Source: a phage
Direction: 5' to 3' (one strand)
DNA: 64,000 nucleotides
Assembly (NCBI GenBank): GCA_014685065.1
Contig: GCA_014685065.1_4092.2
The position numbers and the translations under genes are program-made. The notes beneath the pieces were generated by a model. It saw nothing but the letters and a program-made list of their open reading frames with translations, was not told the DNA's origin and ran no database searches. The first letter of the stretch is position 1; the number at the start of each line of letters is the position of its first letter. Positions 28,733 through 43,139 of the stretch are shown here, piece by piece.

Positions 28733-28814
28733 GAGAATAGATTAAAAGTACTATTGCACGGTGATAGTACTTTATAATAGATTTCTTTTATACAACAACG
28801 ATAGGGGTAACAGC

Positions 28815-29081
28815 ATGAATATTATATACTTTGCAACGCGTGAACTTGCTCGGATTGCCGCACGCCAGGACGGGGCGACGTTTAAAGATATGGGCGTACA
28901 ATCTGAACGTGGTAAACGTTGGGCCGTAGTAAAGCAAAGTACAGCCCGATCAATTCAGTACTGGCTATCTGCTTTAAAGCGTCCTGATAGTGTATCGCGT
29001 CGCGTGGTAGAAATAAAGCACGACCGCAAGGGCAACCGCGTTACTGTGTACAGTACTAAAAAGATTGCAGTACTTGAATAA
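28815..29081 (+). CDS. hypothetical protein, paralog of 40786..41181
   Basis: shared FATRE.AR..AR..G.TFKDMG..RWAV and HDRKGNRVTVYS. Confidence 0.55.
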   Translation: MNIIYFATRELARIAARQDGATFKDMGVQSERGKRWAVVKQSTARSIQYWLSALKRPDSVSRRVVEIKHDRKGNRVTVYSTKKIAVLE

Positions 29082-29203
29082 AAGTACTTGACAGTTATCC
29101 GGCTTAGTGAGATAATACTTACAAGCCGGACACAAGGCGATAGCCCATAGGGTGCGGGAGTGTATCTATAGGAAAGTACTAAAAACTATTTTCAAAAAAG
29201 TAC

Positions 29204-29349
29204 TTGCAAACTATGTTTAAAGGCGTATAATGTTTTACATCAGGACGGGGAATGAAATAAGTAACTCCCTGTTAAGTAGTCCAGGAGTAAGACTTACGAA
29301 AAACTCCCCTGATAAAATAGTTTGACAAAGATTTATAAAAGCGTATAAT
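29204..29349 (+). promoter_or_regulatory. duplicated long leader module with two tandem promoters (TTGCAA 29204/TATAAT 29226; TTGACA 29322/TATAAT 29344) flanking a conserved ~80-nt segment
   Basis: near-identical copy at 39531-39700. Confidence 0.5.
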
Positions 29350-29381
29350 ACTTACATCAACTAATGAATGAGGGTTACAAA

Positions 29382-29993
29382 ATGAAAACTATCACTACTA
29401 CTACTTTTGTTATGGCTTTTTCTGAACTGAACGCAGAACAACAAACGGCGGCTATCGAACTGGTTCGGGATCGGGAACGTGCAAGTGAGGATAATTTCTT
29501 TGCTGAGTCAGTACTGGAATACTATAAAGAAACAGTACTGCCAGAATACGGCATAGATGAAGCTGAATTGCAATACAGTGGTTTTTGGTCGCAAGGTGAC
29601 GGTGCATCAATCAGTACTGACCACGTTGACGCTGAGAAGTTTTTACGCAAGGTTAAGGCGTTAACTAAGTATCGCACTATCCGTCACCTGTTGAACGAAG
29701 ATGATTTAGAAATGAGTGTAGAACGTTCCCAATCGCGTTATGCACACGAAAACACGGTAGGCGGTTGCGTTGATACTCGCTACACTGATTTAACTGTAAA
29801 ACAGGCTGCATTAGCTGAGGATCTGGAAAACTTACTGACTGATACTATCCGAGAATTATCTTGTAAGCTGTACCGTGATTTAGAAAATGCTTATGAAGAC
29901 CAGTTTACTACTGAAAACATTGTAGCACTGATTGAGGGTAACGAATATCAATTTAATGTTATCGATGGTGTAGTAGAATCTATCGCATATTAA
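29382..29993 (+). CDS. hypothetical protein (203 aa)
   Basis: ATG at 29382 after SD GAGGG. Confidence 0.6.
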   Translation: MKTITTTTFVMAFSELNAEQQTAAIELVRDRERASEDNFFAESVLEYYKETVLPEYGIDEAELQYSGFWSQGDGASISTDHVDAEKFLRKVKALTKYRTIRHLLNEDDLEMSVERSQSRYAHENTVGGCVDTRYTDLTVKQAALAEDLENLLTDTIRELSCKLYRDLENAYEDQFTTENIVALIEGNEYQFNVIDGVVESIAY

Positions 29994-30010
29994 TTCAGTA
30001 CTGAATCACT

Positions 30011-30030
30011 GGCGGGGAATGGTTCCCGCC
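30011..30030 (+). promoter_or_regulatory. 5'-leader hairpin GGCGGGGAATGGTTCCCGCC
   Basis: hairpin-family member; no clean -10 found upstream. Confidence 0.4.
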
Positions 30031-30051
30031 TATATCCCAGGAGTAAGAGAA

Positions 30052-30288
30052 ATGATCGAACAAATCAAAACTACAACGCCAAACGTAACGGGTACAGTAT
30101 CACACTTCATTGGTGACGATTCGCGGGGCGTTCCTTATTGTGCAGTACATGTAAACCAAAATGGCGACTACTGGCTAACGGTTTACGGTTCTTATTCTTT
30201 CGGGCGTAGTGCACACCAAAAGATCCTGGATAAAGTACAGCCAACGGGTAAAAATATCACCGCTGAGATGTTTTATAAAAAGCACTAA
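30052..30288 (+). CDS. hypothetical protein
   Basis: ATG at 30052 after SD AGGAG. Confidence 0.55.
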   Translation: MIEQIKTTTPNVTGTVSHFIGDDSRGVPYCAVHVNQNGDYWLTVYGSYSFGRSAHQKILDKVQPTGKNITAEMFYKKH

Positions 30289-30295
30289 AAAGTAC

Positions 30296-30354
30296 TTGCA
30301 AAGTAATTAGATTAACGTATAATACTTTATATCGAGAGCGGGAATAGTTCCCGC
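30296..30354 (+). promoter_or_regulatory. early promoter cassette + hairpin GCGGGAATAGTTCCCGC
   Basis: TTGCAA 30296, TATAAT 30318. Confidence 0.6.
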
Positions 30355-30373
30355 CTTTAATGAGGATTATCTA

Positions 30374-30658
30374 ATGAGCAAAGTAATTAATAGTAAAGTA
30401 CTAACTAAAACTTTATCTATAACTGAGTGCACCGATGGTTTTTGGCTGTACGATGAAACGCGTGGCATGAATTTAGCTATGCAGGAGAAAACTGCTGATG
30501 CGGCATATCTTAAAGCACTGGAATACTACCAGAAGCGTTTAAAGGAAGTAGAAAACGATTATAATAACCTGAAAGCGAAAGTAGATCATTTTGTCGGTCA
30601 ATTCGTTGACGATGACGAGGACGGGCACTACTGCGACCGTTGCGGATCTTACAATTGA
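30374..30658 (+). CDS. hypothetical protein
   Basis: ORF track; SD GAGGA. Confidence 0.6.
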   Translation: MSKVINSKVLTKTLSITECTDGFWLYDETRGMNLAMQEKTADAAYLKALEYYQKRLKEVENDYNNLKAKVDHFVGQFVDDDEDGHYCDRCGSYN

Positions 30659-30675
30659 GTACTGAGGATTATCTA

Positions 30676-30879
30676 ATGAGTGATTTAATTGAACGTATCA
30701 AAGAGCTTGAAGAAAAAGAATTGCAGTTGATCGGGTTACGGAATAAAGTATTCCATGATTTAGGTGGCTTCATTAATGCCTGGGATAGTGGCGATCCTGA
30801 TGCGTTACCTGCTAACCGCCAGGCGATGATCAATGATGTGCGTGGTGTCTTTGATTATGTTTTAAAGCAATTAAATTAA
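30676..30879 (+). CDS. hypothetical protein
   Basis: same GAGGATTATCTAATG start context as 30374. Confidence 0.55.
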   Translation: MSDLIERIKELEEKELQLIGLRNKVFHDLGGFINAWDSGDPDALPANRQAMINDVRGVFDYVLKQLN

Positions 30880-30887
30880 AAAAGTAC

Positions 30888-30947
30888 TTGCAATTAGTTT
30901 TTAGTACTGTATAATAGTTTACATCAAGGGGGGAAATGGTTCTCCCC
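30888..30947 (+). promoter_or_regulatory. early promoter cassette + hairpin
   Basis: TTGCAA 30888, TATAAT 30910, GGGGGAAATGGTTCTCCCC. Confidence 0.6.
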
Positions 30948-30966
30948 ACTAATAAGGAGTTTTACA

Positions 30967-31188
30967 ATGGCTAATATCACTACTCTTTCCCAGCTTGAAG
31001 CACTGGTTAAATCTATGCGGGCACATGTTGACAGTATCGGCGTAGAAGATCCGGCTGTATGTTTTTGTGACGAAATAAATGATGATACGCTCGTCATTGC
31101 AGAAGTACAAGACGTTTCTAACTATTCATCGCGTTACACTTGCGGAGTATCAAAGAAAGGTGATTTCTGTTTATATCTTACTAAGTAA
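30967..31188 (+). CDS. hypothetical protein
   Basis: ORF track; SD AAGGAG. Confidence 0.6.
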   Translation: MANITTLSQLEALVKSMRAHVDSIGVEDPAVCFCDEINDDTLVIAEVQDVSNYSSRYTCGVSKKGDFCLYLTK

Positions 31189-31356
31189 TACAGAGGGGAT
31201 CAATTGATCCCCTTTATATTTTTTGTACTGAATCATTTAATAGACGGATCTATGCACCCTGTGGGTTAGTGACTATCTCGTCTTTATGTAAGTATTATGC
31301 CAGTACTGGATGCAGTTGTCAAGACTTTTTTTTCAAATACTTTTATATCAAAGTAC

Positions 31357-31384
31357 TTGATAATAGTTTTTAAATGCGTATAAT
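31357..31384 (+). promoter_or_regulatory. sigma70-like promoter TTGATA-N16-TATAAT
   Basis: read directly. Confidence 0.5.
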
Positions 31385-31434
31385 GTTTTACATCTAATCG
31401 GGAATACTCCCTAGTACTAACAAAGGATATACAA

Positions 31435-31734
31435 ATGAAAACTGCAATCATCGCCCTGGCTTTATCTGTTTCCTCTTTCGCTGTTAACGCTTCCGTTGAT
31501 GTACCGAAAGAAAAATTCATTCAGTGCACTGTTGCAATGACTAACGAGGAAACGGCTGAGATCGTTACCAAATCCCTGGAACTGGCCCCTGCAATGTTTG
31601 CTAATGGCCCGTACCATGAAGAAGATGATCAGGGTAGCACGACCATCTATTACGATGCAAAAAGTAAACGCGGTTCTGTCACTGTAATGGATACAGAGAA
31701 AGTTACATTCACTGGCGTAATTAATTGTTTATAA
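31435..31734 (+). CDS. secreted/periplasmic protein (N-terminal signal peptide)
   Basis: MKTAIIALALSVSSFAVNASVD signal-like N-terminus. Confidence 0.6.
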   Translation: MKTAIIALALSVSSFAVNASVDVPKEKFIQCTVAMTNEETAEIVTKSLELAPAMFANGPYHEEDDQGSTTIYYDAKSKRGSVTVMDTEKVTFTGVINCL

Positions 31735-31751
31735 TATAGTACTGAATCACT

Positions 31752-31779
31752 AGCCCACTATAAGCAGTGGGCTTTTTTG
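31752..31779 (+). terminator. intrinsic terminator AGCCCACT-N6-AGTGGGCT + T6
   Basis: read directly. Confidence 0.7.
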
Positions 31780-31832
31780 TTTTTGTAGTATTGTAGTACT
31801 GGTATACTTTGAAAATAGTTTTAAAAAAGTAG

Positions 31833-31860
31833 TTGACATTACCAGGGAAAAGCGTAGAAT
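31833..31860 (+). promoter_or_regulatory. sigma70-like promoter TTGACA-N16-TAGAAT with ~110-nt leader
   Basis: read directly. Confidence 0.5.
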
Positions 31861-31974
31861 GTATTACATCAAGACGGGGAACATTAAGTAGACCGCCAGT
31901 AAGTCGAATGAAAAACTGGACACGTCAATAAAACTTTGATAAACTAACTTAAACTTTAATTGAGGATTTATAAA

Positions 31975-32457
31975 ATGGCTAATGTAAAATCATTTCTGAA
32001 AGCACTGATTTCTAACGATACTGTTATTGCTGCTGAATTGCTGGCTGACCTGGATAATGATACCATGAAAGCAGTACGCAACAATTTTAACATTGCTTAC
32101 AGTGAAGCGAAAGAACTACAAGCCAAAAAGGTAGCAGAACTGGAAGAACAGAAAAAAGCCCGTGAAGCAGAACTGCAAGCAACAATAGAAAGTATTCAGG
32201 CGGCGGTGTCTGGTTTAGATCTGGAAGTGGTTATTGAAATGGCACATAAAGCCCTGGCGGTTAAGTACGGTGAAGATAAGCCGGAATCTAAGCCTAAAAA
32301 ATGGATTCAAGAACGTGTTACGGTTGTCCTTGATAACGGGGAAGAACATTTGATTCCTGTACGCGGTAACTGCATTGCGGTAGTACTAGATGCAATCAAA
32401 GAAAGCGGTATGACTCGCGAGGAATGGATCGAAGCTCACCGCAAAGTTGAAGCATAA
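31975..32457 (+). CDS. hypothetical protein (alanine/glutamate-rich, likely helical)
   Basis: ATG at 31975 after SD GAGGA. Confidence 0.6.
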   Translation: MANVKSFLKALISNDTVIAAELLADLDNDTMKAVRNNFNIAYSEAKELQAKKVAELEEQKKAREAELQATIESIQAAVSGLDLEVVIEMAHKALAVKYGEDKPESKPKKWIQERVTVVLDNGEEHLIPVRGNCIAVVLDAIKESGMTREEWIEAHRKVEA

Positions 32458-32478
32458 CAATTAAAGTACTGAATCACT

Positions 32479-32505
32479 AGCCCACTTATACAGTGGGCTT
32501 TTTTG
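32479..32505 (+). terminator. intrinsic terminator AGCCCACT-N6-AGTGGGCT + T-run
   Basis: read directly. Confidence 0.7.
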
Positions 32506-32657
32506 TGTCTATAGTATTCCATGCCGTCAGCACCTCATAGAATCGATTCTAACGCATTAAACTGATTATCTGATGCATCGCCCTAGCTGGTGGAGTTAAG
32601 GCCGTTAGAATGCGATTGAGAGTGTTAAAAGTATTTTACAAAAAGTAATAAAAAGTA

Positions 32658-32685
32658 CTTGCACGATTCAGAGATTAGCGTATAA
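32658..32685 (+). promoter_or_regulatory. sigma70-like promoter TTGCAC-N16-TATAAT
   Basis: read directly. Confidence 0.5.
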
Positions 32686-32731
32686 TGTTTTACATCAAGG
32701 CGAAACACCTTAACTAACTGAGGATATAAAG

Positions 32732-32884
32732 ATGAATACTTATGAACTGGATTGTTTCACTATGCAAGTAATGTTAGTATGCAGTAAAAAAGAATGGTCA
32801 TCAAAGGAATTTAAAGCAGTTATTGCATGTTCAAAAAAAGGTAAGTCTATTATTGAAACGGCAGCTATCGTAGATAGTCTTTAA
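32732..32884 (+). CDS. small hypothetical protein (50 aa)
   Basis: hand-translated; SD GAGGA. Confidence 0.4.
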   Translation: MNTYELDCFTMQVMLVCSKKEWSSKEFKAVIACSKKGKSIIETAAIVDSL

Positions 32885-32892
32885 AAAATAGT

Positions 32893-32921
32893 TTGACAAT
32901 AGTTTTAAGTACTGACATAAT
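32893..32921 (+). promoter_or_regulatory. sigma70-like promoter TTGACA-N17-CATAAT
   Basis: read directly. Confidence 0.5.
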
Positions 32922-32954
32922 ACATACATCAACTACTGAATAGGAATCAAAACA

Positions 32955-33182
32955 ATGGCTATCGTAATCACTCGCGTATCTGGTACTACTGGCAATTCTT
33001 CTACTGTTGCTGTAATTACTAATAAGAAAGGTGCGGAATTACATTTTGCAATGAATACCTGGGCGGTGAATGAGTTCGGTCAGTGGGCTAGTGTAGAATA
33101 CATTGAAACCTATCAAGTGCCAACCATTAGCTTAACGGATCTCGGCGTAGATCGTATCTTATGCCTGGATGAATTAAACTAA
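32955..33182 (+). CDS. hypothetical protein
   Basis: ORF track. Confidence 0.55.
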   Translation: MAIVITRVSGTTGNSSTVAVITNKKGAELHFAMNTWAVNEFGQWASVEYIETYQVPTISLTDLGVDRILCLDELN

Positions 33183-33189
33183 AAAGTAC

Positions 33190-33249
33190 TTGCAAAGTAA
33201 ATCGGATAAAGTATAATACATTACATCAAGGGGAGAAATGATTCTCCCC
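33190..33249 (+). promoter_or_regulatory. early promoter cassette + hairpin GGGGAGAAATGATTCTCCCC
   Basis: TTGCAA 33190, TATAAT 33212. Confidence 0.6.
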
Positions 33250-33267
33250 ACTAAGAGGAAACTAAAA

Positions 33268-33411
33268 ATGAAAACTTGTCAATGTGGTAAAAAATCTATC
33301 ACTGGTTTGAAACGGGGCGTTGCTCTTTGTCAGTATCACTATAACGCTCAAGTATGGGGTAAAGAGTGGGCCGACCAGGTGGAAGCAATAAAGAAAGCAA
33401 AAAGTAAGTAA
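33268..33411 (+). CDS. small Cys-rich protein (47 aa; CxCG..C..H zinc-ribbon-like)
   Basis: hand-translated MKTCQCGKK..ALCQYHY; SD AAGAGGAAA. Confidence 0.45.
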   Translation: MKTCQCGKKSITGLKRGVALCQYHYNAQVWGKEWADQVEAIKKAKSK

Positions 33412-33420
33412 AATTATTAT

Positions 33421-33459
33421 CACAGTACTATTGACATAGATTGATAGTACTGGCATAAT
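33421..33459 (+). promoter_or_regulatory. class II promoter: TTGACA-N17-CATAAT with AGTACTAT/ATAGTACT inverted repeat over -35 and spacer
   Basis: read directly. Confidence 0.55.
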
Positions 33460-33492
33460 AGATTTTATCAAGACAACTAAGAGGAAACAAAA

Positions 33493-33705
33493 ATGGCTAT
33501 CATTACAAAAATCAAAGTAAACAATTCACTGGTTAAACTGGAACAAGTGAAAGCGGGTTATAAAGTATCATGGTGCGGAATGTATCGGATGTTCGCAGAT
33601 ATTGACGATGCAATCAAATATTATACTGATACGGTTGCTAACTTTGTTCGTGCTGATGTAGTGATGGCAGTTGCACAACATAAAGCATCAAAGCAAAGTA
33701 AGTAA
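33493..33705 (+). CDS. hypothetical protein
   Basis: ORF track. Confidence 0.55.
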   Translation: MAIITKIKVNNSLVKLEQVKAGYKVSWCGMYRMFADIDDAIKYYTDTVANFVRADVVMAVAQHKASKQSK

Positions 33706-33710
33706 AATTA

Positions 33711-33753
33711 TTATCACAGTACTATTGACATAGTTTGATAGTACTGGCATAAT
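33711..33753 (+). promoter_or_regulatory. class II promoter with AGTACT inverted repeat (near-identical to 33421 copy)
   Basis: TTGACA 33725, CATAAT 33748. Confidence 0.55.
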
Positions 33754-33786
33754 AGATTTTATCAAGACAACTAAGAGGAAATTAAA

Positions 33787-34131
33787 ATGGCTAACATCAA
33801 CACTATCTCAGCACAAAATATCAACCTGTCTTCTGTTGAAGTTGTACATATTGCCGCTCGGCGTTGGTTCCAGGCTTCATATGGTAACACTTATTTCTCT
33901 TTAAGTGTAGACGTAGAAATTGATGGTAATTTTATTGAAGTAGTAAACGTGCCGTTCCAATATGGATACGGGGATCACTTTGACACTGTAGCAATGGAAG
34001 AATTTAGCAAGGTTATTAATATGGAAGATAAAGAGTTTTTACGCGGTTCTTATCTTTCCCGTTTTTGCCGTGACAATAATATCACTGTTTACAGTTCGGT
34101 AACTGATGTTAAACGCAAAAAAGATCTTTAA
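33787..34131 (+). CDS. hypothetical protein
   Basis: ORF track. Confidence 0.6.
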   Translation: MANINTISAQNINLSSVEVVHIAARRWFQASYGNTYFSLSVDVEIDGNFIEVVNVPFQYGYGDHFDTVAMEEFSKVINMEDKEFLRGSYLSRFCRDNNITVYSSVTDVKRKKDL

Positions 34132-34211
34132 TTAGCTTTACTTTATGCAGATACTTTGATATAGTGTCTGCATAGGGGAAAGAAATTAAATCAAATTAAG
34201 AGGATAGTAAA

Positions 34212-34481
34212 ATGAAAAATATCAGTACTTTAATCGATGCAGGTACTCATGTTCGTCGGTCAATGGTTGCAACCAGTACTACAAAACAAGTAGCAAGCGG
34301 TTATCTTGTATTTGTACACGAAGGAAAGCTATTGGAACGTTCAATCAATTTTGATGTTAAAAACAATTGCCGTTTTATTATTTTTAAGCGTGAACAATAT
34401 AAAATTGATTTGCCAGCAAAGCCCATTAGCGGGGCGTACAACGTGCAATCATTGTTTGAGCGTCAACCATACACCTATTAA
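34212..34481 (+). CDS. hypothetical protein
   Basis: ORF track; SD AAGAGGA. Confidence 0.55.
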   Translation: MKNISTLIDAGTHVRRSMVATSTTKQVASGYLVFVHEGKLLERSINFDVKNNCRFIIFKREQYKIDLPAKPISGAYNVQSLFERQPYTY

Positions 34482-34532
34482 TCAAAACATCGTTAGCGGT
34501 CGATTTAGGCCGCTTATATTGGGGATTATACC

Positions 34533-34703
34533 ATGAACGTTAATCAAGTACTGAATGAAGTTGAAAGCATCATTAAACCAATGAAACGTATTGATGCTGT
34601 TCCTACACCGGAAGAATGCCGCCTTTATGAGCGTTACAGTGTGGAACAAGCCCAGGAAATGGCCCGTATCCGTCCGGTTGCCAGTACTGATAAGGCGGCG
34701 TAA
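34533..34703 (+). CDS. small hypothetical protein (56 aa)
   Basis: hand-translated; SD-like GGGGA. Confidence 0.4.
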   Translation: MNVNQVLNEVESIIKPMKRIDAVPTPEECRLYERYSVEQAQEMARIRPVASTDKAA

Positions 34704-34704
34704 T

Positions 34705-34911
34705 ATGCTTACTGTACAGGATAAGATCGACATCTTAAAGGTTAATATGTATGTGATTGATGCAGATCCTGAAAAAGTATTTGCATACGATGATTCTAAT
34801 CGTAGTCCTTTTTATTGTAGTCATGTAGTTGGATACGTGCCGTTAGCGTATGTTATCGAAAGAGTGGTTGATTCAGCTTATAAACATTACTTAGAAAGTA
34901 CTTGCAATTAG
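34705..34911 (+). CDS. hypothetical protein
   Basis: ATG one nt after previous stop. Confidence 0.45.
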   Translation: MLTVQDKIDILKVNMYVIDADPEKVFAYDDSNRSPFYCSHVVGYVPLAYVIERVVDSAYKHYLESTCN

Positions 34912-34961
34912 TTTTCAGTACTGTATAATTGTTTACATAGAGGGGGGGAATGGTTCTCCCC
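34902..34961 (+). promoter_or_regulatory. early promoter cassette + hairpin
   Basis: TTGCAA 34902, TATAAT 34924, GGGGGGGAATGGTTCTCCCC. Confidence 0.6.
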
Positions 34962-34979
34962 GATACTAGGAGAAACAAA

Positions 34980-35132
34980 ATGAAACAATATAACGCTCGG
35001 TTTGATGTTACTATCGGTAACGGGAAAGGTCAGTACTCTTTCAGTACTCGTAAAAGTTATACAGAAAACTTCCTGCGTAATTGTGCACTGACCGCCGCAC
35101 AAATTAAACATTACTTTCAGGCTAAAAAATGA
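34980..35132 (+). CDS. small hypothetical protein (50 aa)
   Basis: ATG after SD AGGAG. Confidence 0.45.
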   Translation: MKQYNARFDVTIGNGKGQYSFSTRKSYTENFLRNCALTAAQIKHYFQAKK

Positions 35133-35218
35133 AATCATTAGCTTACTATAGTTCGGCCCTGGTCGGTGCAGTACTGGCGGCATTGTTAGTAACCTATCTA
35201 TTCTTTATGGTGATTTAA
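35129..35218 (+). CDS. micro membrane peptide (29 aa)
   Basis: ATGA overlap; single hydrophobic helix; speculative. Confidence 0.3.
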   Translation: MKSLAYYSSALVGAVLAALLVTYLFFMVI

Positions 35219-35356
35219 ATGAATCCAAATAATATTATCTATCCTAACGCTAAAACGAAAGCAGATAAGGTAAACGCAAAAAAAGCGAAAGTAAAGCAGT
35301 ACATCAAGCAAGGCATGACACGCAAAGCGGCATTGCTTAAAGCTAAAAATAAATGA
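35219..35356 (+). CDS. small basic protein (45 aa)
   Basis: hand-translated; Lys-rich. Confidence 0.3.
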   Translation: MNPNNIIYPNAKTKADKVNAKKAKVKQYIKQGMTRKAALLKAKNK

Positions 35357-35362
35357 AAAAAG

Positions 35363-35394
35363 TGGTTGACTTCGGTCAGCCATTTTGCTATTAT
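35363..35394 (+). terminator. terminator/promoter dual element, copy 4 (variant)
   Basis: TGGTTGACTTCGGTCAGCCA + TTTTG + TATTAT. Confidence 0.55.
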
Positions 35395-35498
35395 ATATTC
35401 ATTGAGAGATAGCTCACTAGCCCACAGGGTGCAGGAATGTATCTATTGTATAATGATTGAGTACTGAAAACTATTTTAAAGTATTTGATAAAAAGTAC

Positions 35499-35557
35499 TT
35501 GCAAACTATCTCAATAAGCGTATAATGTTTTACATCGCAAGGGGAAACGGTTTCCCC
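35499..35557 (+). promoter_or_regulatory. early promoter cassette + hairpin GGGGAAACGGTTTCCCC
   Basis: TTGCAA 35499, TATAAT 35521. Confidence 0.6.
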
Positions 35558-35577
35558 TGGTAATAAGGAAACGAATC

Positions 35578-35919
35578 ATGACTATTGCAATTGCTCAATC
35601 TAACTTTGAAAACGAAATCATCGCTCAGGCACTGCGTTTAAATGATGGTCGGGCCGAAATCAATTACGGTTTCAATAGTGGTGGATGTGAAAAATATCAG
35701 TACTTTGTAACGGCTGATGGCTGTGTCCTGGGTATCAATACAGTTATTGTAAACATTCAGAAAATTAATTTCAATGATCCAGACGATAGCCAGTTTTACA
35801 TCACGGGCGTAGACGTGAACTACGAAGATGATTCCTTAACTGATGATTACACTGGCGAGAAGTTAGAAAGTGCATACGGTGAGGATGATTATCAGTCCGG
35901 TCCAGAAGATTTTGAATAA
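35578..35919 (+). CDS. hypothetical acidic protein
   Basis: ORF track. Confidence 0.6.
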   Translation: MTIAIAQSNFENEIIAQALRLNDGRAEINYGFNSGGCEKYQYFVTADGCVLGINTVIVNIQKINFNDPDDSQFYITGVDVNYEDDSLTDDYTGEKLESAYGEDDYQSGPEDFE

Positions 35920-35933
35920 TATTAAAAAATAGT

Positions 35934-35992
35934 TTGACAATAGTTTCCAGTACTGTATAATTAATTACATCAAGGGGAGAATAGTTCTCCCC
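35934..35992 (+). promoter_or_regulatory. early promoter cassette + hairpin GGGGAGAATAGTTCTCCCC
   Basis: TTGACA 35934, TATAAT 35956. Confidence 0.65.
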
Positions 35993-36014
35993 ACTAACAG
36001 AGAGAGAAAACAAA

Positions 36015-36197
36015 ATGGCTGAATTAATCGCTCGGAATACAATTGCAGGCGTTGAAGATGTAACATTATCATATGATTCAGATAAACAAGTTTACGTCAT
36101 TCGTTATGGTCTGATTGGTGTTAACGTTGATTCAATTGACGAAGCCTTTGAAAAATACTTTGAATTTATCAACCTGGCTTATGATGATTATCGTTAA
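36015..36197 (+). CDS. hypothetical protein
   Basis: ORF track. Confidence 0.5.
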   Translation: MAELIARNTIAGVEDVTLSYDSDKQVYVIRYGLIGVNVDSIDEAFEKYFEFINLAYDDYR

Positions 36198-36205
36198 AAA
36201 ATAGT

Positions 36206-36264
36206 TTGACAATAGTTTTAAGTACTGTATAATTAATTACATCAAGGGGAGAATAGTTCTCCCC
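36206..36264 (+). promoter_or_regulatory. early promoter cassette + hairpin (near-identical copy of 35934)
   Basis: TTGACA 36206, TATAAT 36228. Confidence 0.65.
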
Positions 36265-36281
36265 ACTAAGAGGAAAACAAA

Positions 36282-36500
36282 ATGGCTAATATCCGCACTG
36301 TACTGAAAAATGCAAAACAAGTTTTATTTTCTGACGATGAATATTTTAATCGCAATATCAAAGGCGTTCGGAACATTGAGGATGTAAAGGAATTATTTGG
36401 AATCAAAGGTAACGTATATCGTAAAGGATTGCACGGTAATCATTTTGAATATAAGTTAGCTGATAGTGATTATAACTTTACACTGACTATCATTAACTAA
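36282..36500 (+). CDS. hypothetical protein
   Basis: ORF track. Confidence 0.55.
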   Translation: MANIRTVLKNAKQVLFSDDEYFNRNIKGVRNIEDVKELFGIKGNVYRKGLHGNHFEYKLADSDYNFTLTIIN

Positions 36501-36510
36501 AAATATTATC

Positions 36511-36548
36511 ACAGTACTATTGACAACTGCCGATAGTACTGGCATAAT
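36511..36548 (+). promoter_or_regulatory. class II promoter with AGTACT inverted repeat
   Basis: TTGACA 36520, CATAAT 36543. Confidence 0.55.
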
Positions 36549-36592
36549 AACTTTTATCAACAGTAGTTAACTTAACCTAAGAGAGAAACATC

Positions 36593-36736
36593 ATGACAGC
36601 ATTAGATTCATTCATCGACGCAGTACTGGCAAAAACTGGCGAGGATCTGACCGCAGAACAATACGCGATGATCGAGCAATGCCAGCAAAACGGTAAATCG
36701 GTGAAAGATACTGTTAAGATTATCCGCAAGATGTAA
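36593..36736 (+). CDS. small hypothetical protein (47 aa)
   Basis: hand-translated; SD AAGAGAGAAA. Confidence 0.4.
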   Translation: MTALDSFIDAVLAKTGEDLTAEQYAMIEQCQQNGKSVKDTVKIIRKM

Positions 36737-36841
36737 GAATATAGCCCACTGGTTAACGCTGGTGGGCTTTAATCATTTACCCTATACAATGCCAGTACTA
36801 AACCGTTTATCTCGTTAGAATGCGTTACAGGACGTTTAACA

Positions 36842-37039
36842 ATGATTAGCATGAAATCAGTACAAAAACAAATTGATACATTATCAAAAATTAAACGTAA
36901 ACAGTACTCCTTAGAATATACAATCAATGGTAACTATCATCTAATGAAAGAAAATAATTTTATAGTCATTGATGAATCATTGCAAATCATTAGTATAGTA
37001 CTGAAAGCATTAATCAATGACAGAAAAAAGTTAAAATAA
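36842..37039 (+). CDS. hypothetical protein
   Basis: ORF track; weak SD. Confidence 0.4.
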   Translation: MISMKSVQKQIDTLSKIKRKQYSLEYTINGNYHLMKENNFIVIDESLQIISIVLKALINDRKKLK

Positions 37040-37370
37040 TCTATTGACAATATTATCCAGTACTGGCATAATACTTACATCAAGACGAGAACGTCACTAA
37101 CCCATAGGGTGCACAAATGTAACTGTATAATATTGATCAAAAAATGATCTGATCAATACTTGATCAATTTGCGTAAAGTAGTATAATTCTATGCAGTTGG
37201 TTAGACGAAAGGTTATGATTAGTAGTGGAAGTGTATAAAAATTTTCATGGTGTGGTGATCCGCACATATGGGGATGAATATGTCGTGTCGTATGGATTGG
37301 AAAAAGTAAGAACAAGTAATATACTTGTCGCGTTACAGTACTATAGTAATTTTATAATGAGGTTAAAATA

Positions 37371-37628
37371 ATGGCTGTAGGATTCACGAAAGATGGGGCC
37401 GAGCAAGACGAGATTAACGCAGTGATTCAGGCCGCTGTTAACCACGCTAGAACGCAAATTAACGCACAAATAGAATCACTGATACATTGCCTCGACTGCG
37501 GCGATAAAATCCCTGAGAATCGCCGCCAGGCAGTTAAGGGGTGTAAGTACTGCATCACTTGCCAGGCTGATCATGATAGCATATTCAAACGCAATCCCCG
37601 TAATTGTTGGCATAGATCTATGAGATAA
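37371..37628 (+). CDS. DksA/TraR-family C4 zinc-finger protein
   Basis: CLDCGDKIPENRRQAVKGCKYCITCQ matches CxxCG..IP..RR.A....CxxCQ. Confidence 0.7.
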   Translation: MAVGFTKDGAEQDEINAVIQAAVNHARTQINAQIESLIHCLDCGDKIPENRRQAVKGCKYCITCQADHDSIFKRNPRNCWHRSMR

Positions 37629-37634
37629 AAAGTA

Positions 37635-37662
37635 TTGACAGTGCTGTTAGTTAGTGTATAAT
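37635..37662 (+). promoter_or_regulatory. sigma70-like promoter TTGACA-N16-TATAAT
   Basis: read directly. Confidence 0.5.
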
Positions 37663-37691
37663 ATTTTATATCTTAACTGAGGATTGAAATC

Positions 37692-38048
37692 ATGGGTATA
37701 CAACATATCACGCGTACTACAGACAATGGTGAGATCACTGGCTATCAAGTACAAGGCAAAGTAGCACAATTGCAGTACTGGTTTGTTAAACGTGGCATTG
37801 TTGCACCAGATCTTGATTATAATCGTGTAGCGTTTATTGATTCTCTTTATGTTGATCCCGATAATCGCGGTAACGGTGAAGGTACTGAATTAATGAATGC
37901 CTTTATTGATGCCGCCGATGATTCAGATTGTATCATCTTAGAATGCGATACGGGAGAAGATAACGCATTTAATCTTAAAGAATGGTATGAAAGTTTTGGT
38001 TTTGAAGTGCTGATGGACTGCGAATATCCTATAATGATTTTATCCTAG
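37692..38048 (+). CDS. possible GNAT-type acetyltransferase
   Basis: motif-A-like YVDPDNRGNGEGTELMNAF (R-x-x-G-x-G); weak. Confidence 0.4.
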   Translation: MGIQHITRTTDNGEITGYQVQGKVAQLQYWFVKRGIVAPDLDYNRVAFIDSLYVDPDNRGNGEGTELMNAFIDAADDSDCIILECDTGEDNAFNLKEWYESFGFEVLMDCEYPIMILS

Positions 38049-38051
38049 TAC

Positions 38052-38110
38052 TTGCAATTAGTTTTAAGTACTGTATAATAGTTTACATGAAGGGGAGAAT
38101 AGTTCTCCCC
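38052..38110 (+). promoter_or_regulatory. early promoter cassette + hairpin
   Basis: TTGCAA 38052, TATAAT 38074, GGGGAGAATAGTTCTCCCC. Confidence 0.65.
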
Positions 38111-38127
38111 ACTACAAGGAAAGACAA

Positions 38128-38316
38128 ATGCAAAACTTATCAAGTATTTTAGTACAAGATGATTTCGGTAATCCTGGAAGTGCTATCATTGTTCGGGGTA
38201 ATAAAGCAACATTTGTTATTGCTGGTGGACCTGTACAGCGTAGCATTAAAAACAATGCAGTTACAATCAATAATGTTCGCTATCGCTTGGATAAAGAATT
38301 GATTCATAAACTGTAA
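38128..38316 (+). CDS. hypothetical protein
   Basis: ORF track. Confidence 0.5.
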   Translation: MQNLSSILVQDDFGNPGSAIIVRGNKATFVIAGGPVQRSIKNNAVTINNVRYRLDKELIHKL

Positions 38317-38343
38317 TATTAATTTAATAGAGGATAAAAATAA

Positions 38344-38667
38344 ATGTATATTCATACTACTATCACAAAAGAAGTTCGTTGTCAATTCGAAAGTATCCCT
38401 GGTGTATGTTTCATTACAGGCACTTTCTCACCTGGTGACCGTGATAATCCAGTACTGTTACAGTTACGCCATCCATTATGGGATAAAGCATTTGATCTGC
38501 CGTTGAATGAATTCGCAACCACTGCTGATAAGTACATTAAAAATATTCGCGAGAATGATTGCCTATTCATTAATGCTTTTAGTGATGCCGCGTTAAGTGA
38601 GATCCATGCTGTATTGGTTGCAATCATGGAATCAATGGAGAAAACTATATTCAAACAAGGTGAATAA
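38344..38667 (+). CDS. hypothetical protein
   Basis: ORF track; SD GAGGA. Confidence 0.55.
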   Translation: MYIHTTITKEVRCQFESIPGVCFITGTFSPGDRDNPVLLQLRHPLWDKAFDLPLNEFATTADKYIKNIRENDCLFINAFSDAALSEIHAVLVAIMESMEKTIFKQGE

Positions 38668-38673
38668 AAACTA

Positions 38674-38733
38674 TTGACAATGTAATCTAGTACTGTATAA
38701 TAGTTTACATGAAGGGGAGAAATGATTCTCCCC
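38674..38733 (+). promoter_or_regulatory. early promoter cassette + hairpin
   Basis: TTGACA 38674, TATAAT 38696. Confidence 0.65.
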
Positions 38734-38750
38734 ACTAAGAGGAAAGAAAC

Positions 38751-38963
38751 ATGCAAGGTCAACTAATCGTTCGTAAATGGTCTGATACTAACGAAAAACC
38801 GTGGGATGTTCAATATATCGGACCGGACGGTGTTTCACGTTATCAACCTGGCGTAACGCATAGTACTGAGCAATATGCCGCCGCTCACCGTGAACGCCTG
38901 TTAGAATCTATGAAACAGGGATTCTGTGAAAAATTCATTCAAGATCATTGGCTGAAAGATTAA
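38751..38963 (+). CDS. hypothetical protein
   Basis: ORF track. Confidence 0.55.
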   Translation: MQGQLIVRKWSDTNEKPWDVQYIGPDGVSRYQPGVTHSTEQYAAAHRERLLESMKQGFCEKFIQDHWLKD

Positions 38964-38980
38964 TAGAAGGAGTACAGCTT

Positions 38981-39073
38981 ATGCAAATGAATCCGATGAT
39001 TGTTGTGTTAGCTGTACTTATGGTCATTCATGCCATCGTAGAAGTACTAACACAATCAGGAGTAATACAATGA
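38981..39073 (+). CDS. micro membrane peptide (30 aa)
   Basis: SD AAGGAG 8 nt upstream; hydrophobic; speculative. Confidence 0.35.
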   Translation: MQMNPMIVVLAVLMVIHAIVEVLTQSGVIQ

Positions 39074-39240
39074 TCCAGGTGGAATTATCAGTACTGAAAG
39101 ATCTGTTTTATCGGTTAGGCACTACTGGCGAATACCCTAAAGGGGATACTGCTAAACTATACATTGCATTGGATGTATGGCAACGTAATGAACTGGCTAA
39201 CGCCTGGCGTAAAGGTAAATCAGAGGGGATTGCAGCATGA
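39070..39240 (+). CDS. small hypothetical protein (56 aa)
   Basis: ATGA overlap; SD AGGAG. Confidence 0.4.
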   Translation: MIQVELSVLKDLFYRLGTTGEYPKGDTAKLYIALDVWQRNELANAWRKGKSEGIAA

Positions 39241-39386
39241 AAGAATTCTTATTCGAAGTAGTGTTCCAGGGCGTAGGAAGTAACCAACTGATTCGATCAA
39301 GTGGTTACAATGTTAACCAGGCATGGAATAACATTAAACAAATGTACCCGAACGCTATCACATATCGCAACCCAAAACAAGTTTAA
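39237..39386 (+). CDS. small hypothetical protein (49 aa)
   Basis: ATGA overlap. Confidence 0.35.
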   Translation: MKEFLFEVVFQGVGSNQLIRSSGYNVNQAWNNIKQMYPNAITYRNPKQV

Positions 39387-39400
39387 AAAGAATTAAAAAA

Positions 39401-39433
39401 GGGATTGACTCCGGTCAGTCCCTTTGCTATTAT
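39401..39433 (+). terminator. terminator/promoter dual element, copy 5 (GGGATTGAC-TCCG-GTCAGTCCC variant)
   Basis: read directly. Confidence 0.55.
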
Positions 39434-39530
39434 ATACGCATAGAAACAAATCAGCCCACAGGGTGCATAAATGTATCTATTATATGCTGGTGGCTAGTAC
39501 TATCAAGTACTGAAAACTATTTTTAAAAAG

Positions 39531-39700
39531 TACTTGCAAAGTATCACGATAAGCGTATAATGTTTTACATCAGGACGGGGAACGAAACAAGTAACTCCCC
39601 GTTAAGTAGTCCAGGAGTAAGACATACGAAAACCTCCCCTGATAAAATAGTTTGACAATACCAAGTAAACGAGTATAATACTTACATCAACCACAAAGAG
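39531..39700 (+). promoter_or_regulatory. second copy of the long tandem-promoter leader module seen at 29204-29349
   Basis: near-identical ~170 bp. Confidence 0.5.
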
Positions 39701-39709
39701 GAATACAAA

Positions 39710-39910
39710 ATGAAACATTTTACTTTCGGTGTAGTAGGCTTTACAGTATCCAGCGGCGTTTATAAATCAGAACGCGGTGCTAAAAATGCAGCAAGTCGGG
39801 CGTATGGTTCACAGCGTGACTTACAGGTCGGTTATATTAGTAACATTAATAACATGTTTATTCCTGTTTCACAGCGTAAAGCGGGTAACATGAAATGGGA
39901 AACAATTTGA
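39710..39910 (+). CDS. hypothetical protein
   Basis: ORF track; SD AAGAGGAA. Confidence 0.55.
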   Translation: MKHFTFGVVGFTVSSGVYKSERGAKNAASRAYGSQRDLQVGYISNINNMFIPVSQRKAGNMKWETI

Positions 39911-39918
39911 TAAAATAG

Positions 39919-39978
39919 TTTGACAATAGTTTTTAGTACTGTATAATAGTTTACATCAAGTGGGGAATAGTTCCCCAC
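39919..39978 (+). promoter_or_regulatory. early promoter cassette + hairpin GTGGGGAATAGTTCCCCAC
   Basis: TTGACA 39919, TATAAT 39942. Confidence 0.65.
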
Positions 39979-39999
39979 CTAACAAAGAGAGAAATTAAA

Positions 40000-40275: not shown

Positions 40276-40278
40276 GTA

Positions 40279-40338: not shown

Positions 40339-40362
40339 CCTAACTAAAAGAGAGAAATTAAA

Positions 40363-43136: not shown

Positions 43137-43139
43137 GTA

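What the first reader, a model, noticed from the sequence alone, without database searches (positions are those of the whole stretch)
29204..39700. A ~170-bp leader module with two tandem promoters is present in near-identical copies
29204-29360 and 39531-39700 match almost base for base: promoter 1, then TACATCAGGACGGGGAA(T/C)GAAA(T/C)AAGTAACTCCC(T/C)GTTAAGTAGTCCAGGAGTAAGAC(T/A)TACGAAAA(A/C)CTCCCCTGATAAAATAG, then promoter 2. A third related copy lies at 31833-31974. The internal segment has paired ACGGGGA/TCCCCGT arms and no ATG, so it may be a small RNA or a structured leader (attenuator or riboregulator).
Basis: seen in the sequence. Interest (0 to 1): 0.5.

Follow-up and report, generated by a model that had tools for sequence, protein, structure and literature searches.

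The report
Conserved structured leader RNA, shared with T7
The repeated 170-bp module is real, and its transcribed core is a folded RNA domain of a seemingly undescribed family that also lies between the early promoters A1 and A2 of phage T7 and in hundreds of related phages; its function is still unknown.

Summary
The window comes from a 121Q/PBECO4-type (Asteriusvirus) jumbo coliphage. The two modules (29204-29360 and 39534-39690) each have the layout sigma70 promoter P1, 75-nt leader, sigma70 promoter P2. The leaders are 94% identical, but the promoter spacers are only 43-56% identical. So the conserved unit is the transcribed leader.

The leader folds into four parts:
- a closing helix (AUCAGG/CCUGAU);
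- a single-stranded UAAGUAG;
- a second hairpin with a conserved 14-nt loop (AAGNCNNAYGAAAA).

The last three parts recur as a third copy at 31873-31926. They also occur in Justusliebigvirus and Vequintavirinae-labelled phages, in T7 (nt 536-593, between A1 and A2), and in about 580 mostly Autographiviridae records.

Stems covary: five variants of the second hairpin and six of the closing or pseudoknot helix. The wobble pairs (G·U, U·G) fit only the transcribed strand. No Rfam 15 family matches, no bacterial chromosome carries the motif, and I found no description in the literature searched.

It is neither a terminated small RNA nor a classical attenuator. The best reading is a leader domain acting in cis that binds a host factor. 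That mechanism is inferred, not shown.

The parts
29204..29231 (+). Copy A, promoter P1 (TTGCAA-16-TATAAT). Predicted start near A29237-A29239.
29239..29313 (+). Copy A, structured leader domain. Closing helix AUCAGG 29239-29244 / CCUGAU 29308-29313. Hairpin H1 ACGGGGA 29245-29251 / UCCCUGU 29266-29272, with a G·U at 29247/29270. Linker UAAGUAG 29273-29279. Hairpin H2 GGAGU 29284-29288 / ACUCC 29303-29307, loop AAGACUUACGAAAA 29289-29302.
   Evidence: family covariation
29322..29349 (+). Copy A, promoter P2 (TTGACA-16-TATAAT). It drives the gene at 29382-29993 (203 aa, phrog_5162, unknown function).
39534..39561 (+). Copy B, promoter P1 (TTGCAA-16-TATAAT). Predicted start near A39567-A39569.
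39569..39643 (+). Copy B, structured leader domain. Closing helix 39569-39574 / 39638-39643. H1 ACGGGGA 39575-39581 / UCCCCGU 39596-39602. UAAGUAG 39603-39609. H2 GGAG 39614-39617 / CUCC 39634-39637, with the loop between them.
39652..39679 (+). Copy B, promoter P2 (TTGACA-16-TATAAT). It drives the gene at 39710-39910 (66 aa, phrog_7744, unknown function).
31833..31860 (+). Copy C, promoter (TTGACA-16-TAGAAT). It lies 60 nt after an intrinsic terminator at 31752-31773.
31873..31926 (+). Copy C, reduced leader domain with no H1 hairpin. Closing helix GACG 31873-31876 / CGUC 31923-31926. UAAGUAG 31885-31891. H2 CCAGU 31896-31900 / ACUGG 31915-31919, loop AAGUCGAAUGAAAA 31901-31914. The ATG at 31908 opens a 7-codon mini-ORF ending at 31931. 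No P2 follows. The gene is at 31975-32457 and a terminator at 32479-32499.
39395..39485 (+). A separate repeated element directly upstream of copy B, with a relative at about 29080-29175 upstream of copy A. It is a terminator-like hairpin that contains a -35, followed by a short transcript with a CCCAYAGGG hairpin. It is context only, not part of the leader family.
   Evidence: (family D20)

Best explanation
Each module is a small early promoter array: P1, a 75-nt structured leader, then P2.

Host RNA polymerase starting at P1 makes the leader as the very 5' end of a transcript. With no terminator in the way, that transcript continues through P2 into the downstream early gene. Polymerase starting at P2 makes the same message without the leader.

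The leader folds as it is transcribed into a compact domain:
- a closing helix that ties up the 5' end;
- an optional side hairpin;
- an 11-nt linker carrying the invariant UAAGUAG;
- a 4-5-bp hairpin with a conserved 14-17-nt loop, (N)UAAGNCNNAYGAAAA(N).

This domain belongs to an RNA family I could not find described. In T7-like phages it occupies the A1-to-A2 interval. There the side hairpin's loop, rather than the 5' end, forms the closing helix, which makes a pseudoknot. The family also occurs in Justusliebigvirus, Vequintavirinae-labelled and Asteriusvirus phages.

Shown here: the repeat, the fold (by covariation), the strand, the distribution, and the absence of coding potential and of a terminator.

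Inferred: the conserved single-stranded linker and loop form a binding surface for a component conserved across the hosts, which are Enterobacterales plus Aeromonas. The domain would act in cis on P1-initiated transcripts or elongation complexes, either by 5'-end protection or by changing polymerase elongation and termination behaviour, as HK022 put RNA does. It would not act as a diffusible small RNA or an attenuator.
For: Repeat and layout:
- The leader is 94% identical between copies while promoter spacers and flanks are 43-57%.
- The model finds three copies in the window and nothing else above 9 bits.

Distribution:
- 45 phage records carry the 87-nt core at 86-98% identity. They include Justusliebigvirus and Vequintavirinae-labelled phages, and in all ten copies in the seven relatives inspected the core lies between genes with the same P1-core-P2 layout, upstream of at least five unrelated genes.
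- The 3' half matches T7-like early regions, in T7 itself at nt 536-593 with the A2 -35 at 589-594.
- 583 records match by blastn, and the motif is the best-conserved part of the A1-A2 interval.
- Six relatives fetched by blastn rather than by pattern score 47-61 bits.

Fold:
- In hairpin H2, the four central pairs are 100% paired in 33 distinct sequences, with CG/GC 25/8, CG/GC/UA 24/8/1 and UA/AU/UG 19/13/1. The covariation score is 0.478 against 0.173 in shuffles (0 of 500 reach it) and at most 0.14 when partners are slid.
- In T7-likes, all 5 pairs of the pseudoknot helix change on both sides and 99.2% of cells are paired. Hairpin a has 3 of 4 pairs with compensatory changes. Overall covariation is 0.448 against 0.147 (0 of 500).

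Strand:
- Wobble pairs fit only the + strand: G·U 14 times at the outer H2 pair, U·G in L046, and G·U in H1 of copy A and of PBECO4.

Not coding:
- The 31-codon frame that spans the element is broken by indels in 121Q, EmilieFrey and others.

Context:
- Copy C follows a terminator and copy B a terminator-like hairpin.
- In vB_Ec-M-J the three copies lie 3.8, 6.8 and 14.2 kb from the physical left end, inside a 21.5-kb terminal repeat.
- In T7, blocking just downstream of A1 with dCas9 delayed lysis strongly although A2 and A3 remained (PMC11863960).
Against: - There is no functional evidence of any kind. The binding partner and the effect are guesses.
- Within the jumbo-type copies alone, the closing helix and H1 never vary, so they are untested there. 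Support for the fold comes mainly from the wider family.
- Most family members were collected with a pattern that fixed the linker and loop bases. Their 'invariance' is therefore partly imposed. Relatives found by blastn do show GAACAAC, UCAAGUAG and UUAAGUGG variants.
- Minimum-free-energy folds of single copies are only modestly better than shuffles (z = -1.9 and -2.1), and the two copies get different predicted folds.
- A processive anti-termination role fits poorly with copy C, whose single gene is followed by a strong terminator 550 nt downstream. It also fits poorly with the fact that nearly every early gene here has its own promoter.
- The motif resembles an ordinary stop / Shine-Dalgarno / ATG-AAA gene junction, so it may have arisen from one.
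Confidence: 0.55

Rival explanations
1. A discrete small RNA of about 80 nt that acts in trans. It would be made from P1 and ended by processing or by polymerase stalling at P2. The conserved linker and loop would be seed or protein-binding regions aimed at a host target.
For: - It has its own strong promoter.
- It has a compact, covarying fold with conserved single-stranded stretches.
- It has no coding potential.
- It is among the first RNAs made, from DNA near the genome end.
- Two to three copies per genome would raise the dose.
Against: - No intrinsic terminator follows any copy. The closing helix is followed by AAAAUAGUUUGACA.
- In T7 the 3' strand of the fold is the A2 -35 itself.
- From my own knowledge, not checked here: A1 transcripts are known to run on into the T7 early genes.
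- The loop positions that could pair with a target vary (NCNNAY).
- The motif was not found in bacterial genomes, and no complementary host target was identified.
Confidence: 0.12
2. An evolutionary relic or recombination linker. It would be the decayed start of a small gene (stop codons, a Shine-Dalgarno-like GGAG, then ATG-AAA-AAC decayed to ACG) trapped between two promoter cassettes. Its spread among co-infecting phages would come from promoter-mediated modular shuffling of the PeSL type, with no function of its own.
For: - The region holds dozens of promoter + GGGG/CCCC hairpin + Shine-Dalgarno + ATG cassettes (families D1-D4, D7, D12), like the PeSL elements of T4-type phages (PMC2839356, PMC4122927).
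- Module junctions fall inside P2, and the downstream genes differ.
- Some copies keep ATG and a 5-12-codon mini-ORF.
- The same search pattern also hits ordinary gene starts (L014, L018, L040, L042).
Against: - The leader is far better conserved than the promoter spacers next to it.
- Stems covary through at least 5 (H2) and 6 (closing helix) different sequences while staying paired. Drift or transfer alone does not produce that.
- The motif persists across Autographiviridae genera that share little else in this interval.
Confidence: 0.1
3. A DNA-level element. It would be an upstream activating (UP-like) sequence or a protein-binding site for the next promoter, or an insulator between tandem promoters.
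For: - In T7 and many relatives the GAAAAAC tract and the 3' arm abut the -35 of the next promoter.
- Copies A and B are followed at once by P2.
Against: - The distance to the next promoter varies from 3 to about 40 nt.
- Copy C has no following promoter, and in L031 and L035 none is evident; L035 has a boxA there and L031 a boxA-like sequence.
- Compensatory changes that keep pairing, and wobble pairs that would be A·C mismatches on the other strand, point to RNA rather than duplex DNA.
Confidence: 0.08
4. A riboswitch or attenuator that controls the downstream gene through alternative pairing of GGGG with either CCCC tract.
For: - The 5' GGGG can pair either with the H1 3' arm or with the distal CUCCCC tract, and the two window copies get different minimum-free-energy folds.
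- The fold is compact and pseudoknot-like.
Against: - There is no terminator or Shine-Dalgarno-sequestering expression platform.
- A complete promoter separates the element from the gene, so P2 transcripts escape any control.
- No Rfam family matches.
- The downstream genes are unrelated.
Confidence: 0.05

Closest known systems
The T7 early promoter array A1-A2-A3 (the 'internalisation signal' region, NC_001604 nt 498-750)
   Same: - Tandem strong sigma70 promoters near the leading genome end.
- The interval after the first promoter carries the same UAAGUAG + hairpin + AAGNCNNAYGAAAA-loop motif: T7 scores 69 bits with the model, though it was one of the training sequences, and the window copies 57-60.
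- A helix closes the domain just 3' of the hairpin.
- The P2 spacer of copy B (AAGTAAAC) also resembles those of T7 A2 and A3.
   Different: - In T7-likes the closing helix uses the 6-nt loop of a small hairpin, giving a pseudoknot. In the jumbo copies it uses the 5' end of the transcript, giving a three-way junction.
- T7 has an extra 5' domain, a third promoter, an rrn-type boxA and an RNase III site (the latter from my own knowledge) downstream. None of these is in the window.
- As far as I could find, this T7 interval is described only as non-coding (PMC11863960).
HK022 put RNAs (putL, putR)
   Same: - Two similar copies of about 70 nt per genome, just downstream of early host-polymerase promoters.
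- Multi-helix fold with functionally important unpaired bases.
- Act in cis without a phage protein (PMC9378689). This is the functional model I borrow.
   Different: - I recognised no sequence or structural similarity, and no Rfam hit reached E = 1.
- Anti-termination, anti-pausing and dependence on the beta' zinc-binding domain are untested.
- Copy C is followed closely by a terminator.
PeSL cassettes of T4-type phages (promoter-early stem-loop)
   Same: - Strong sigma70 promoter + G/C-tract stem-loop + Shine-Dalgarno units flank small non-essential genes in a plastic region and serve as recombination linkers (PMC2839356, PMC4122927).
- The window's 27.9-45.6 kb region is built of such units, and P1 + H1 looks like one.
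   Different: - PeSLs were defined in T4-like phages.
- Their stem-loop is a simple hairpin assayed as a terminator or attenuator.
- The leader here is a larger multi-helix domain with conserved unpaired sequence and covarying long-range pairing, followed by a second promoter rather than a gene.
nut / rrn leader signals (boxB hairpin plus boxA)
   Same: - A short-stem hairpin whose loop contains GAAAA lies in an early leader.
- In LIMEzero-like contigs it sits about 20 nt upstream of a boxA (CGCTCTTTAACAA in L035) or a boxA-like sequence (L031). T7 has a boxA further down the same leader.
   Different: - The loop is 14-17 nt, not a GNRA-like pentaloop.
- There is no boxA within the window's early region: 5 weak matches against 7.8 expected, none near the copies.
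- No N-like protein is known for these phages.
- The model finds nothing in the E. coli rrnB leader.
Pistol self-cleaving ribozyme
   Same: Only a topological resemblance in the T7-like form, recalled from memory. A small hairpin's 6-nt loop pairs with a downstream strand, and an A-rich linker follows (UUAAAUAG in pistol, (U/A)UAAGUAG here).
   Different: - No Rfam match to pistol or to any other family, even at E up to 10.
- The order of helices differs.
- I identified no conserved G-U cleavage site.

Membership tests
Early-leader UAAGUAG-hairpin motif (family defined here; T7 A1-A2 interval as the reference) | UAAGUAG linker, then 2-4 nt, then a 4-5-bp stem with an (N)UAAGNCNNAYGAAAA(N) loop | tested here: met
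   Model R1 scores 59, 57 and 60 bits at 29269-29316, 31881-31928 and 39599-39646. T7 scores 69 bits, though it was one of the training sequences; relatives fetched by blastn, not in the training set, score 47-61 bits.
Early-leader UAAGUAG-hairpin motif (family defined here; T7 A1-A2 interval as the reference) | A helix closes the domain immediately 3' of the hairpin | tested here: met
   AUCAGG/CCUGAU in copies A and B, 100% paired but invariant in 14 sequences. GACG/CGUC in copy C. The homologous helix covaries in T7-likes. The topology differs: a three-way junction here, a pseudoknot there.
Early-leader UAAGUAG-hairpin motif (family defined here; T7 A1-A2 interval as the reference) | Lies within the first ~100 nt downstream of a strong sigma70-type early promoter, on the transcribed strand | tested here: met
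   Promoters are consensus matches only. Transcription itself was not tested.
HK022 put RNA | Two-stem put fold and sequence (including the triplex in stem I) | tested here: not met
   No sequence or structural similarity that I could recognise, and no Rfam hit reached E = 1. Features of put taken from PMC9378689.
HK022 put RNA | Suppresses downstream terminators and pauses in cis; blocked by mutations in the beta' zinc-binding domain | not testable with these tools
   Needs in vitro transcription or reporter assays and rpoC mutants.
PeSL cassette (T4-type phages) | Strong sigma70-like promoter with an upstream A/T-rich element, followed by a G/C-tract stem-loop, then Shine-Dalgarno and the start codon of a small gene | tested here: inconclusive
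   P1 + H1 + GGAG fit the layout. However, ACG replaces the start codon, a second promoter follows, and the phage is not T4-like.
PeSL cassette (T4-type phages) | Serves as a break-point for modular gene exchange | tested here: met
   The same leader + P2 precedes at least five unrelated genes in different phages, and homology ends just after the P2 start site.
Intrinsic-terminator attenuator or riboswitch | Terminator hairpin with a U-tract, or a sequestered Shine-Dalgarno of the regulated gene, with an alternative anti-terminator | tested here: not met
   No terminator-like site lies between P1 and the gene in any copy, and P2 intervenes. No Rfam match.
nut / rrn anti-termination leader | boxA (GCTCTTTAACAA-like) next to the hairpin | tested here: not met
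   No boxA near any window copy. It is present in T7 and in L035 (L031 has only a boxA-like sequence), so the association is not general.
Any curated RNA family (Rfam 15) | Score at or above a family's gathering threshold | tested here: not met
   0 matches in the whole window. Only chance-level hits at E of 3-6 around copy A and in five T7-like early regions.

The most novel reading that the evidence does not exclude
The element, together with the T7 A1-A2 interval, is a new class of phage leader RNA. It would be a compact domain, either a pseudoknot or a three-way junction, exchanged among unrelated virulent phages of enterobacteria: T7-like podoviruses, ~140-kb myoviruses labelled Justusliebigvirus and Vequintavirinae, and Rak2-like jumbo phages. 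It would bind host RNA polymerase or another conserved host factor as soon as it is transcribed. It would thereby reprogram the first transcription complexes or early transcripts of the infection, for example their processivity during transcription-driven genome entry, their resistance to Rho or RNases, or neutralisation of a host sensor.
Probability: 0.3. Interest if true: 0.85.

Novelty: new variant of a known kind. Interest (0 to 1): 0.68.

Why it matters
T7's A1 promoter region is one of the most used transcription templates in molecular biology, and its early leader is described as non-coding. If a covariation-supported RNA fold sits there, and the same fold has been kept or exchanged across phage families as different as T7 and 350-kb jumbo phages, then these phages share an unrecognised RNA-level step at the very start of infection.

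This is directly testable in T7 with stem-breaking and compensatory mutations. It could explain why A1 behaves differently from A2 and A3.

It would also add a second natural example, after HK022 put, of a phage leader RNA acting without a dedicated phage protein. Alternatively, it could reveal a new host target.

For annotation, it gives a searchable marker of early transcription units in poorly annotated jumbo phage genomes.

Tried and rejected
- Rfam. The whole window at gathering thresholds gave nothing. Permissive scans around copy A and over five T7-like early regions gave only chance-level hits. That also rules out pistol and other known ribozymes and riboswitches.
- tRNA and tmRNA scan: none found. 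A resemblance of the loop to the tmRNA resume region and to a stretch of the rrn leader (GUCGCA...CGAAAAA) was recalled from memory. The model finds nothing in the rrnB leader, so I dropped it.
- First IMG/VR scan with the exact 20-mer: only phage 121Q itself.
- E. coli genomes, blastn with copy B: no match.
- Pattern scan of 185,579 representative bacterial and archaeal genomes: 19 loci. Only one is real (72 bits) and it is a 2.7-kb, probably T7-like phage contig in a metagenome bin. The rest score 12-27 bits and I took them for chance matches without inspecting them.
- boxA search in the window: no more than chance, and none near the copies.
- Coding potential. The 31-codon ORF that starts inside the -10 of P1 is frame-broken in relatives. 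A reverse-strand 7-codon ORF lacks its ATG in copy A.
- Downstream genes. No Pfam hit, and PHROG families of unknown function, so there is no functional link.
- Literature. Searches by concept and by literal sequence strings found only papers that quote the T7 sequence as a template, with no description of the motif. The Rak2-like CBB genome paper notes RpoD-like promoters concentrated in the early region and terminal repeat, but not this element.
- Single-sequence folding is weakly informative (z about -2) and inconsistent between copies. I relied on comparative evidence instead.

Full report
**What the window is.** The region matches 121Q/PBECO4-type jumbo coliphages (genus Asteriusvirus) at about 87-95% identity, in a highly mosaic way. 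Positions 27.9-45.6 kb form a rightward array of very small genes. Nearly every gene is preceded by a near-consensus sigma70 promoter, a GGGGAG...CUCCCC hairpin, a Shine-Dalgarno sequence and an ATG (families D1-D4, D7, D12). This resembles the promoter-early stem-loop (PeSL) cassettes of T4-type phages (PMC2839356, PMC4122927). In the relative vB_Ec-M-J the whole array lies inside an annotated 21.5-kb direct terminal repeat. For another Rak2-like phage, RpoD-like promoters with UP elements were reported to cluster in the presumed early region and terminal repeat (PMC5259590).

**The observation.** It is correct.
- Local alignment pairs 29174-29387 with 39505-39715.
- Identity is uneven. The transcribed stretch between the two promoters is 94%. 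The spacers inside P1 and P2 are 56% and 43%. Flanks and downstream genes are about 55%.
- The conserved unit is therefore the leader plus the promoter hexamers.
- The third copy shares a P1-like promoter, the first ~17 nt of the leader and the second half of the leader.

**Relatives close to the window.** The 87-nt core occurs in 45 phage records. Asteriusviruses have two full copies, or four where terminal repeats are assembled twice. The core is also found at 86-93% identity in ~140-kb myoviruses labelled Justusliebigvirus (muut, outra, EmilieFrey) and Vequintavirinae (A73, W70, A7_1, A5-4).
- In the seven relatives inspected, the ten copies all lie between genes and have the P1-core-P2 layout.
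- The core precedes at least five unrelated genes, and homology stops just after the P2 start site. The module therefore moves independently of its gene, as a PeSL-type recombination linker would.
- Indels in the first hairpin's loop and 3' arm break every reading frame across the element, including the 31-codon ORF that begins inside the -10 of P1. It is not coding.

**Distant relatives.** I searched with a pattern that fixed only the unpaired bases and left the stems free (TTAAGTAG N7 GTAAGNCNNAYGAAAA, then a looser version).
- The pattern hit 37-45-kb T7-like contigs, a second jumbo contig and two small contigs; the one of these I checked (L035) is related to Pantoea phage LIMEzero.
- In T7 (NC_001604) the motif lies at nt 536-593, in the A1 transcript, ending in the -35 of A2.
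- blastn with the A1-A2 interval of phiA1122 finds 583 records. Hosts are Escherichia, Klebsiella, Salmonella, Yersinia, Enterobacter, Citrobacter, Cronobacter, Hafnia, Pantoea and Aeromonas. In most records only the motif part aligns, so it is the best-conserved piece of that interval.
- Six such relatives, fetched without the pattern, score 47-61 bits with the model. They show limited variation of the 'invariant' bases: GAACAAC, UCAAGUAG and UUAAGUGG.
- A scan of representative bacterial and archaeal genomes found one real site, on a small, probably T7-like phage contig in a metagenome bin. The rest are chance-level matches.
- E. coli genomes have no blastn match to copy B.
- Within the limits of these searches the motif is phage-specific.

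**Structure.**
- Across 33 distinct sequences, the four central pairs of the second hairpin (H2) are paired in every sequence while the stem changes: CCUG/CAGG, CUUG/CAAG, CCAG/CUGG, GGAG/CUCC, GGUG/CACC, plus a U·G variant. The covariation score is 0.478 against 0.173 in column shuffles (0 of 500 reach it) and at most 0.14 when partners are slid by 1-3 columns.
- In 25 T7-like sequences, a small hairpin directly 5' of UAAGUAG covaries: CCGG/CCGG, CCAG/CUGG, CCAC/GUGG, CGGG/CCCG.
- The 6-nt loop of that hairpin pairs with the sequence just 3' of H2, in six different versions: GUCAA/UUGAC, GUGAA/UUCAC, GUCAUC/GAUGAC, GUCGGU/ACCGAC, GUCAGA/UCUGAC and GAUUAG/CUAAUC. All five pairs change on both sides and 99.2% of cells are paired. 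That is a pseudoknot, or two alternative folds.
- In the jumbo-type copies the equivalent closing strand (CCUGAU) pairs with AUCAGG at the extreme 5' end of the predicted transcript.
- Both layouts place the 11-nt UAAGUAG linker alongside the closing helix and stack H2 on it. The three-dimensional arrangement may therefore be similar, though that is an inference.
- Within the 14 jumbo-type sequences the closing helix and H1 never vary on both sides. They are consistent with pairing but unproven. H1 shows only G·U-preserving changes and is lost in some copies.
- Wobble pairs occur where the opposite strand would have A·C mismatches, so the folded strand is the transcribed + strand.

*Caveats.* Related sequences are not independent. 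The shuffle control is not a probability. The model's E-values are rough. Single-sequence folding is only weakly better than random.

**What it is not.**
- No Rfam 15 family matches the window or the T7-like regions.
- No terminator follows any copy, so a discrete small RNA would need processing.
- No expression platform exists, and a full promoter separates the element from the gene. A classical attenuator or riboswitch is therefore unlikely.
- A purely DNA-level role as an UP element of the next promoter does not fit. The distance to that promoter varies, copy C and the LIMEzero-like contigs (L031, L035) show no following promoter, and the pairs are wobble-tolerant compensatory ones.
- A functionless relic of a gene start explains the resemblance to a stop / Shine-Dalgarno / AUG-AAA junction and the occasional mini-ORFs. 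It does not explain the maintained pairing.

**How it most likely works.**

*Shown:* the element is the 5' part of whatever P1 transcribes. It has a conserved fold with conserved unpaired bases, and it is limited to virulent phages of Enterobacterales and Aeromonas that begin infection with host polymerase.

*Inferred:* it is a cis-acting leader domain whose linker and loop bind a conserved host component. P1-initiated transcripts or complexes would then differ from P2-initiated ones.

Two concrete versions are:
1. 5'-end sequestration plus a bound protein that stabilises early RNA.
2. A put-like effect on the elongating polymerase (PMC9378689).

Version 2 is attractive for T7, where host polymerase pulls the genome into the cell from A1-A3. 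Blocking just after A1 had an unexpectedly strong effect there (PMC11863960). Version 2 fits poorly with copy C, whose gene is followed by a terminator. Some Autographiviridae place a boxA about 20 nt after the hairpin, and T7 has one further downstream. The window has none.

I put about 0.55 on 'functional cis-acting structured leader'. I put no more than about 0.3 on any specific mechanism within it.

**Novelty.** The kind is known: a structured leader RNA in a phage early operon. This fold, its presence in T7's A1-A2 interval and its sharing across unrelated phage families appear undescribed in Rfam 15 and in the open literature I could search. Subscription-journal papers on T7 were not searchable, so an older description cannot be excluded.

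Noticed in passing
window 29080-29175, 35359-35450, 39395-39485, 42699-42790, 44960-45050: A second repeated non-coding element. It is a terminator-like hairpin (AAAGGGATTGACTCCGGTCAGTCCCTTT) that contains a -35, followed by a TGnTATTAT -10 and a short transcript with a CCCAYAGGG hairpin inside an AUAGA...UCUAU helix. blastn finds it in 68 records of Rak2-like jumbo phages of Escherichia, Klebsiella, Salmonella, Cronobacter, Serratia, Erwinia, Pectobacterium and Yersinia. It sits directly upstream of P1 of copies A and B.
   Followed up: partly
L056 (phage K1F, NC_007636 nt ~410-516) versus L063 (E. coli rrnB P1, NC_000913.3 ~4166314-4166411): The first early promoter and leader of K1F-type phages align with the host rrnB P1 promoter from the UP element to about +45. 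The score is 56 against 20.4 +/- 3.4 in shuffles, and 0 of 500 shuffles reach it. The similarity ends where the UAAGUAG motif begins. T7-like early regions also carry an rrn-type boxA. The phage early promoter looks captured from, or modelled on, rrn P1.
   Followed up: partly
window 27900-45600: There are dozens of near-consensus sigma70 promoters, each followed by a GGGGAG(A/T-rich loop)CUCCCC hairpin, a Shine-Dalgarno sequence and the ATG of a 40-200-codon gene. This is a PeSL-like cassette architecture in a non-T4 jumbo phage (families D1-D4, D7, D11, D12).
   Followed up: partly
L062 (vB_Ec-M-J, OQ718158.1) 1-21525: The annotated 21.5-kb direct terminal repeat contains the whole early cassette region. 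Motif copies lie at 3758, 6750 and 14210, so a packaged genome would carry six.
   Followed up: yes
window 31752-31773 and 32479-32499: Two near-identical intrinsic terminators (AGCCCACT...AGTGGGCT + T-run) bracket the single gene served by copy C. This looks like a self-contained inserted cassette: terminator, promoter, leader, gene, terminator.
   Followed up: no
window 11666-22207, - strand: An array of about nine repeat units spaced about 1.2 kb apart, whose shared repeat ends in a CAT preceded by a CCTCC-like stretch (a Shine-Dalgarno and start codon if read on the - strand). Hairpins (GCCAGTACnnnGTACTGGC) lie between the units. The corresponding PBECO4 genes are annotated as RCC1-like (families D5, D6, D19).
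   Followed up: no
window 47258-51155: Twelve copies of a ~50-nt repeat spaced about 210-270 nt apart. All share GGAACAAACTATCAAGA. This suggests a tandem family of very small paralogous genes (families D8, D10, D16).
   Followed up: no
L009 (phage EJP2) ~8760-8850 and ~12487-12570: These are extra, rearranged copies of the leader in which the first hairpin is destroyed but UAAGUAG, H2 and the closing helix are kept. One of them carries the compensatory GGUGU/ACACC stem and an ATG-initiated 12-codon mini-ORF.
   Followed up: yes
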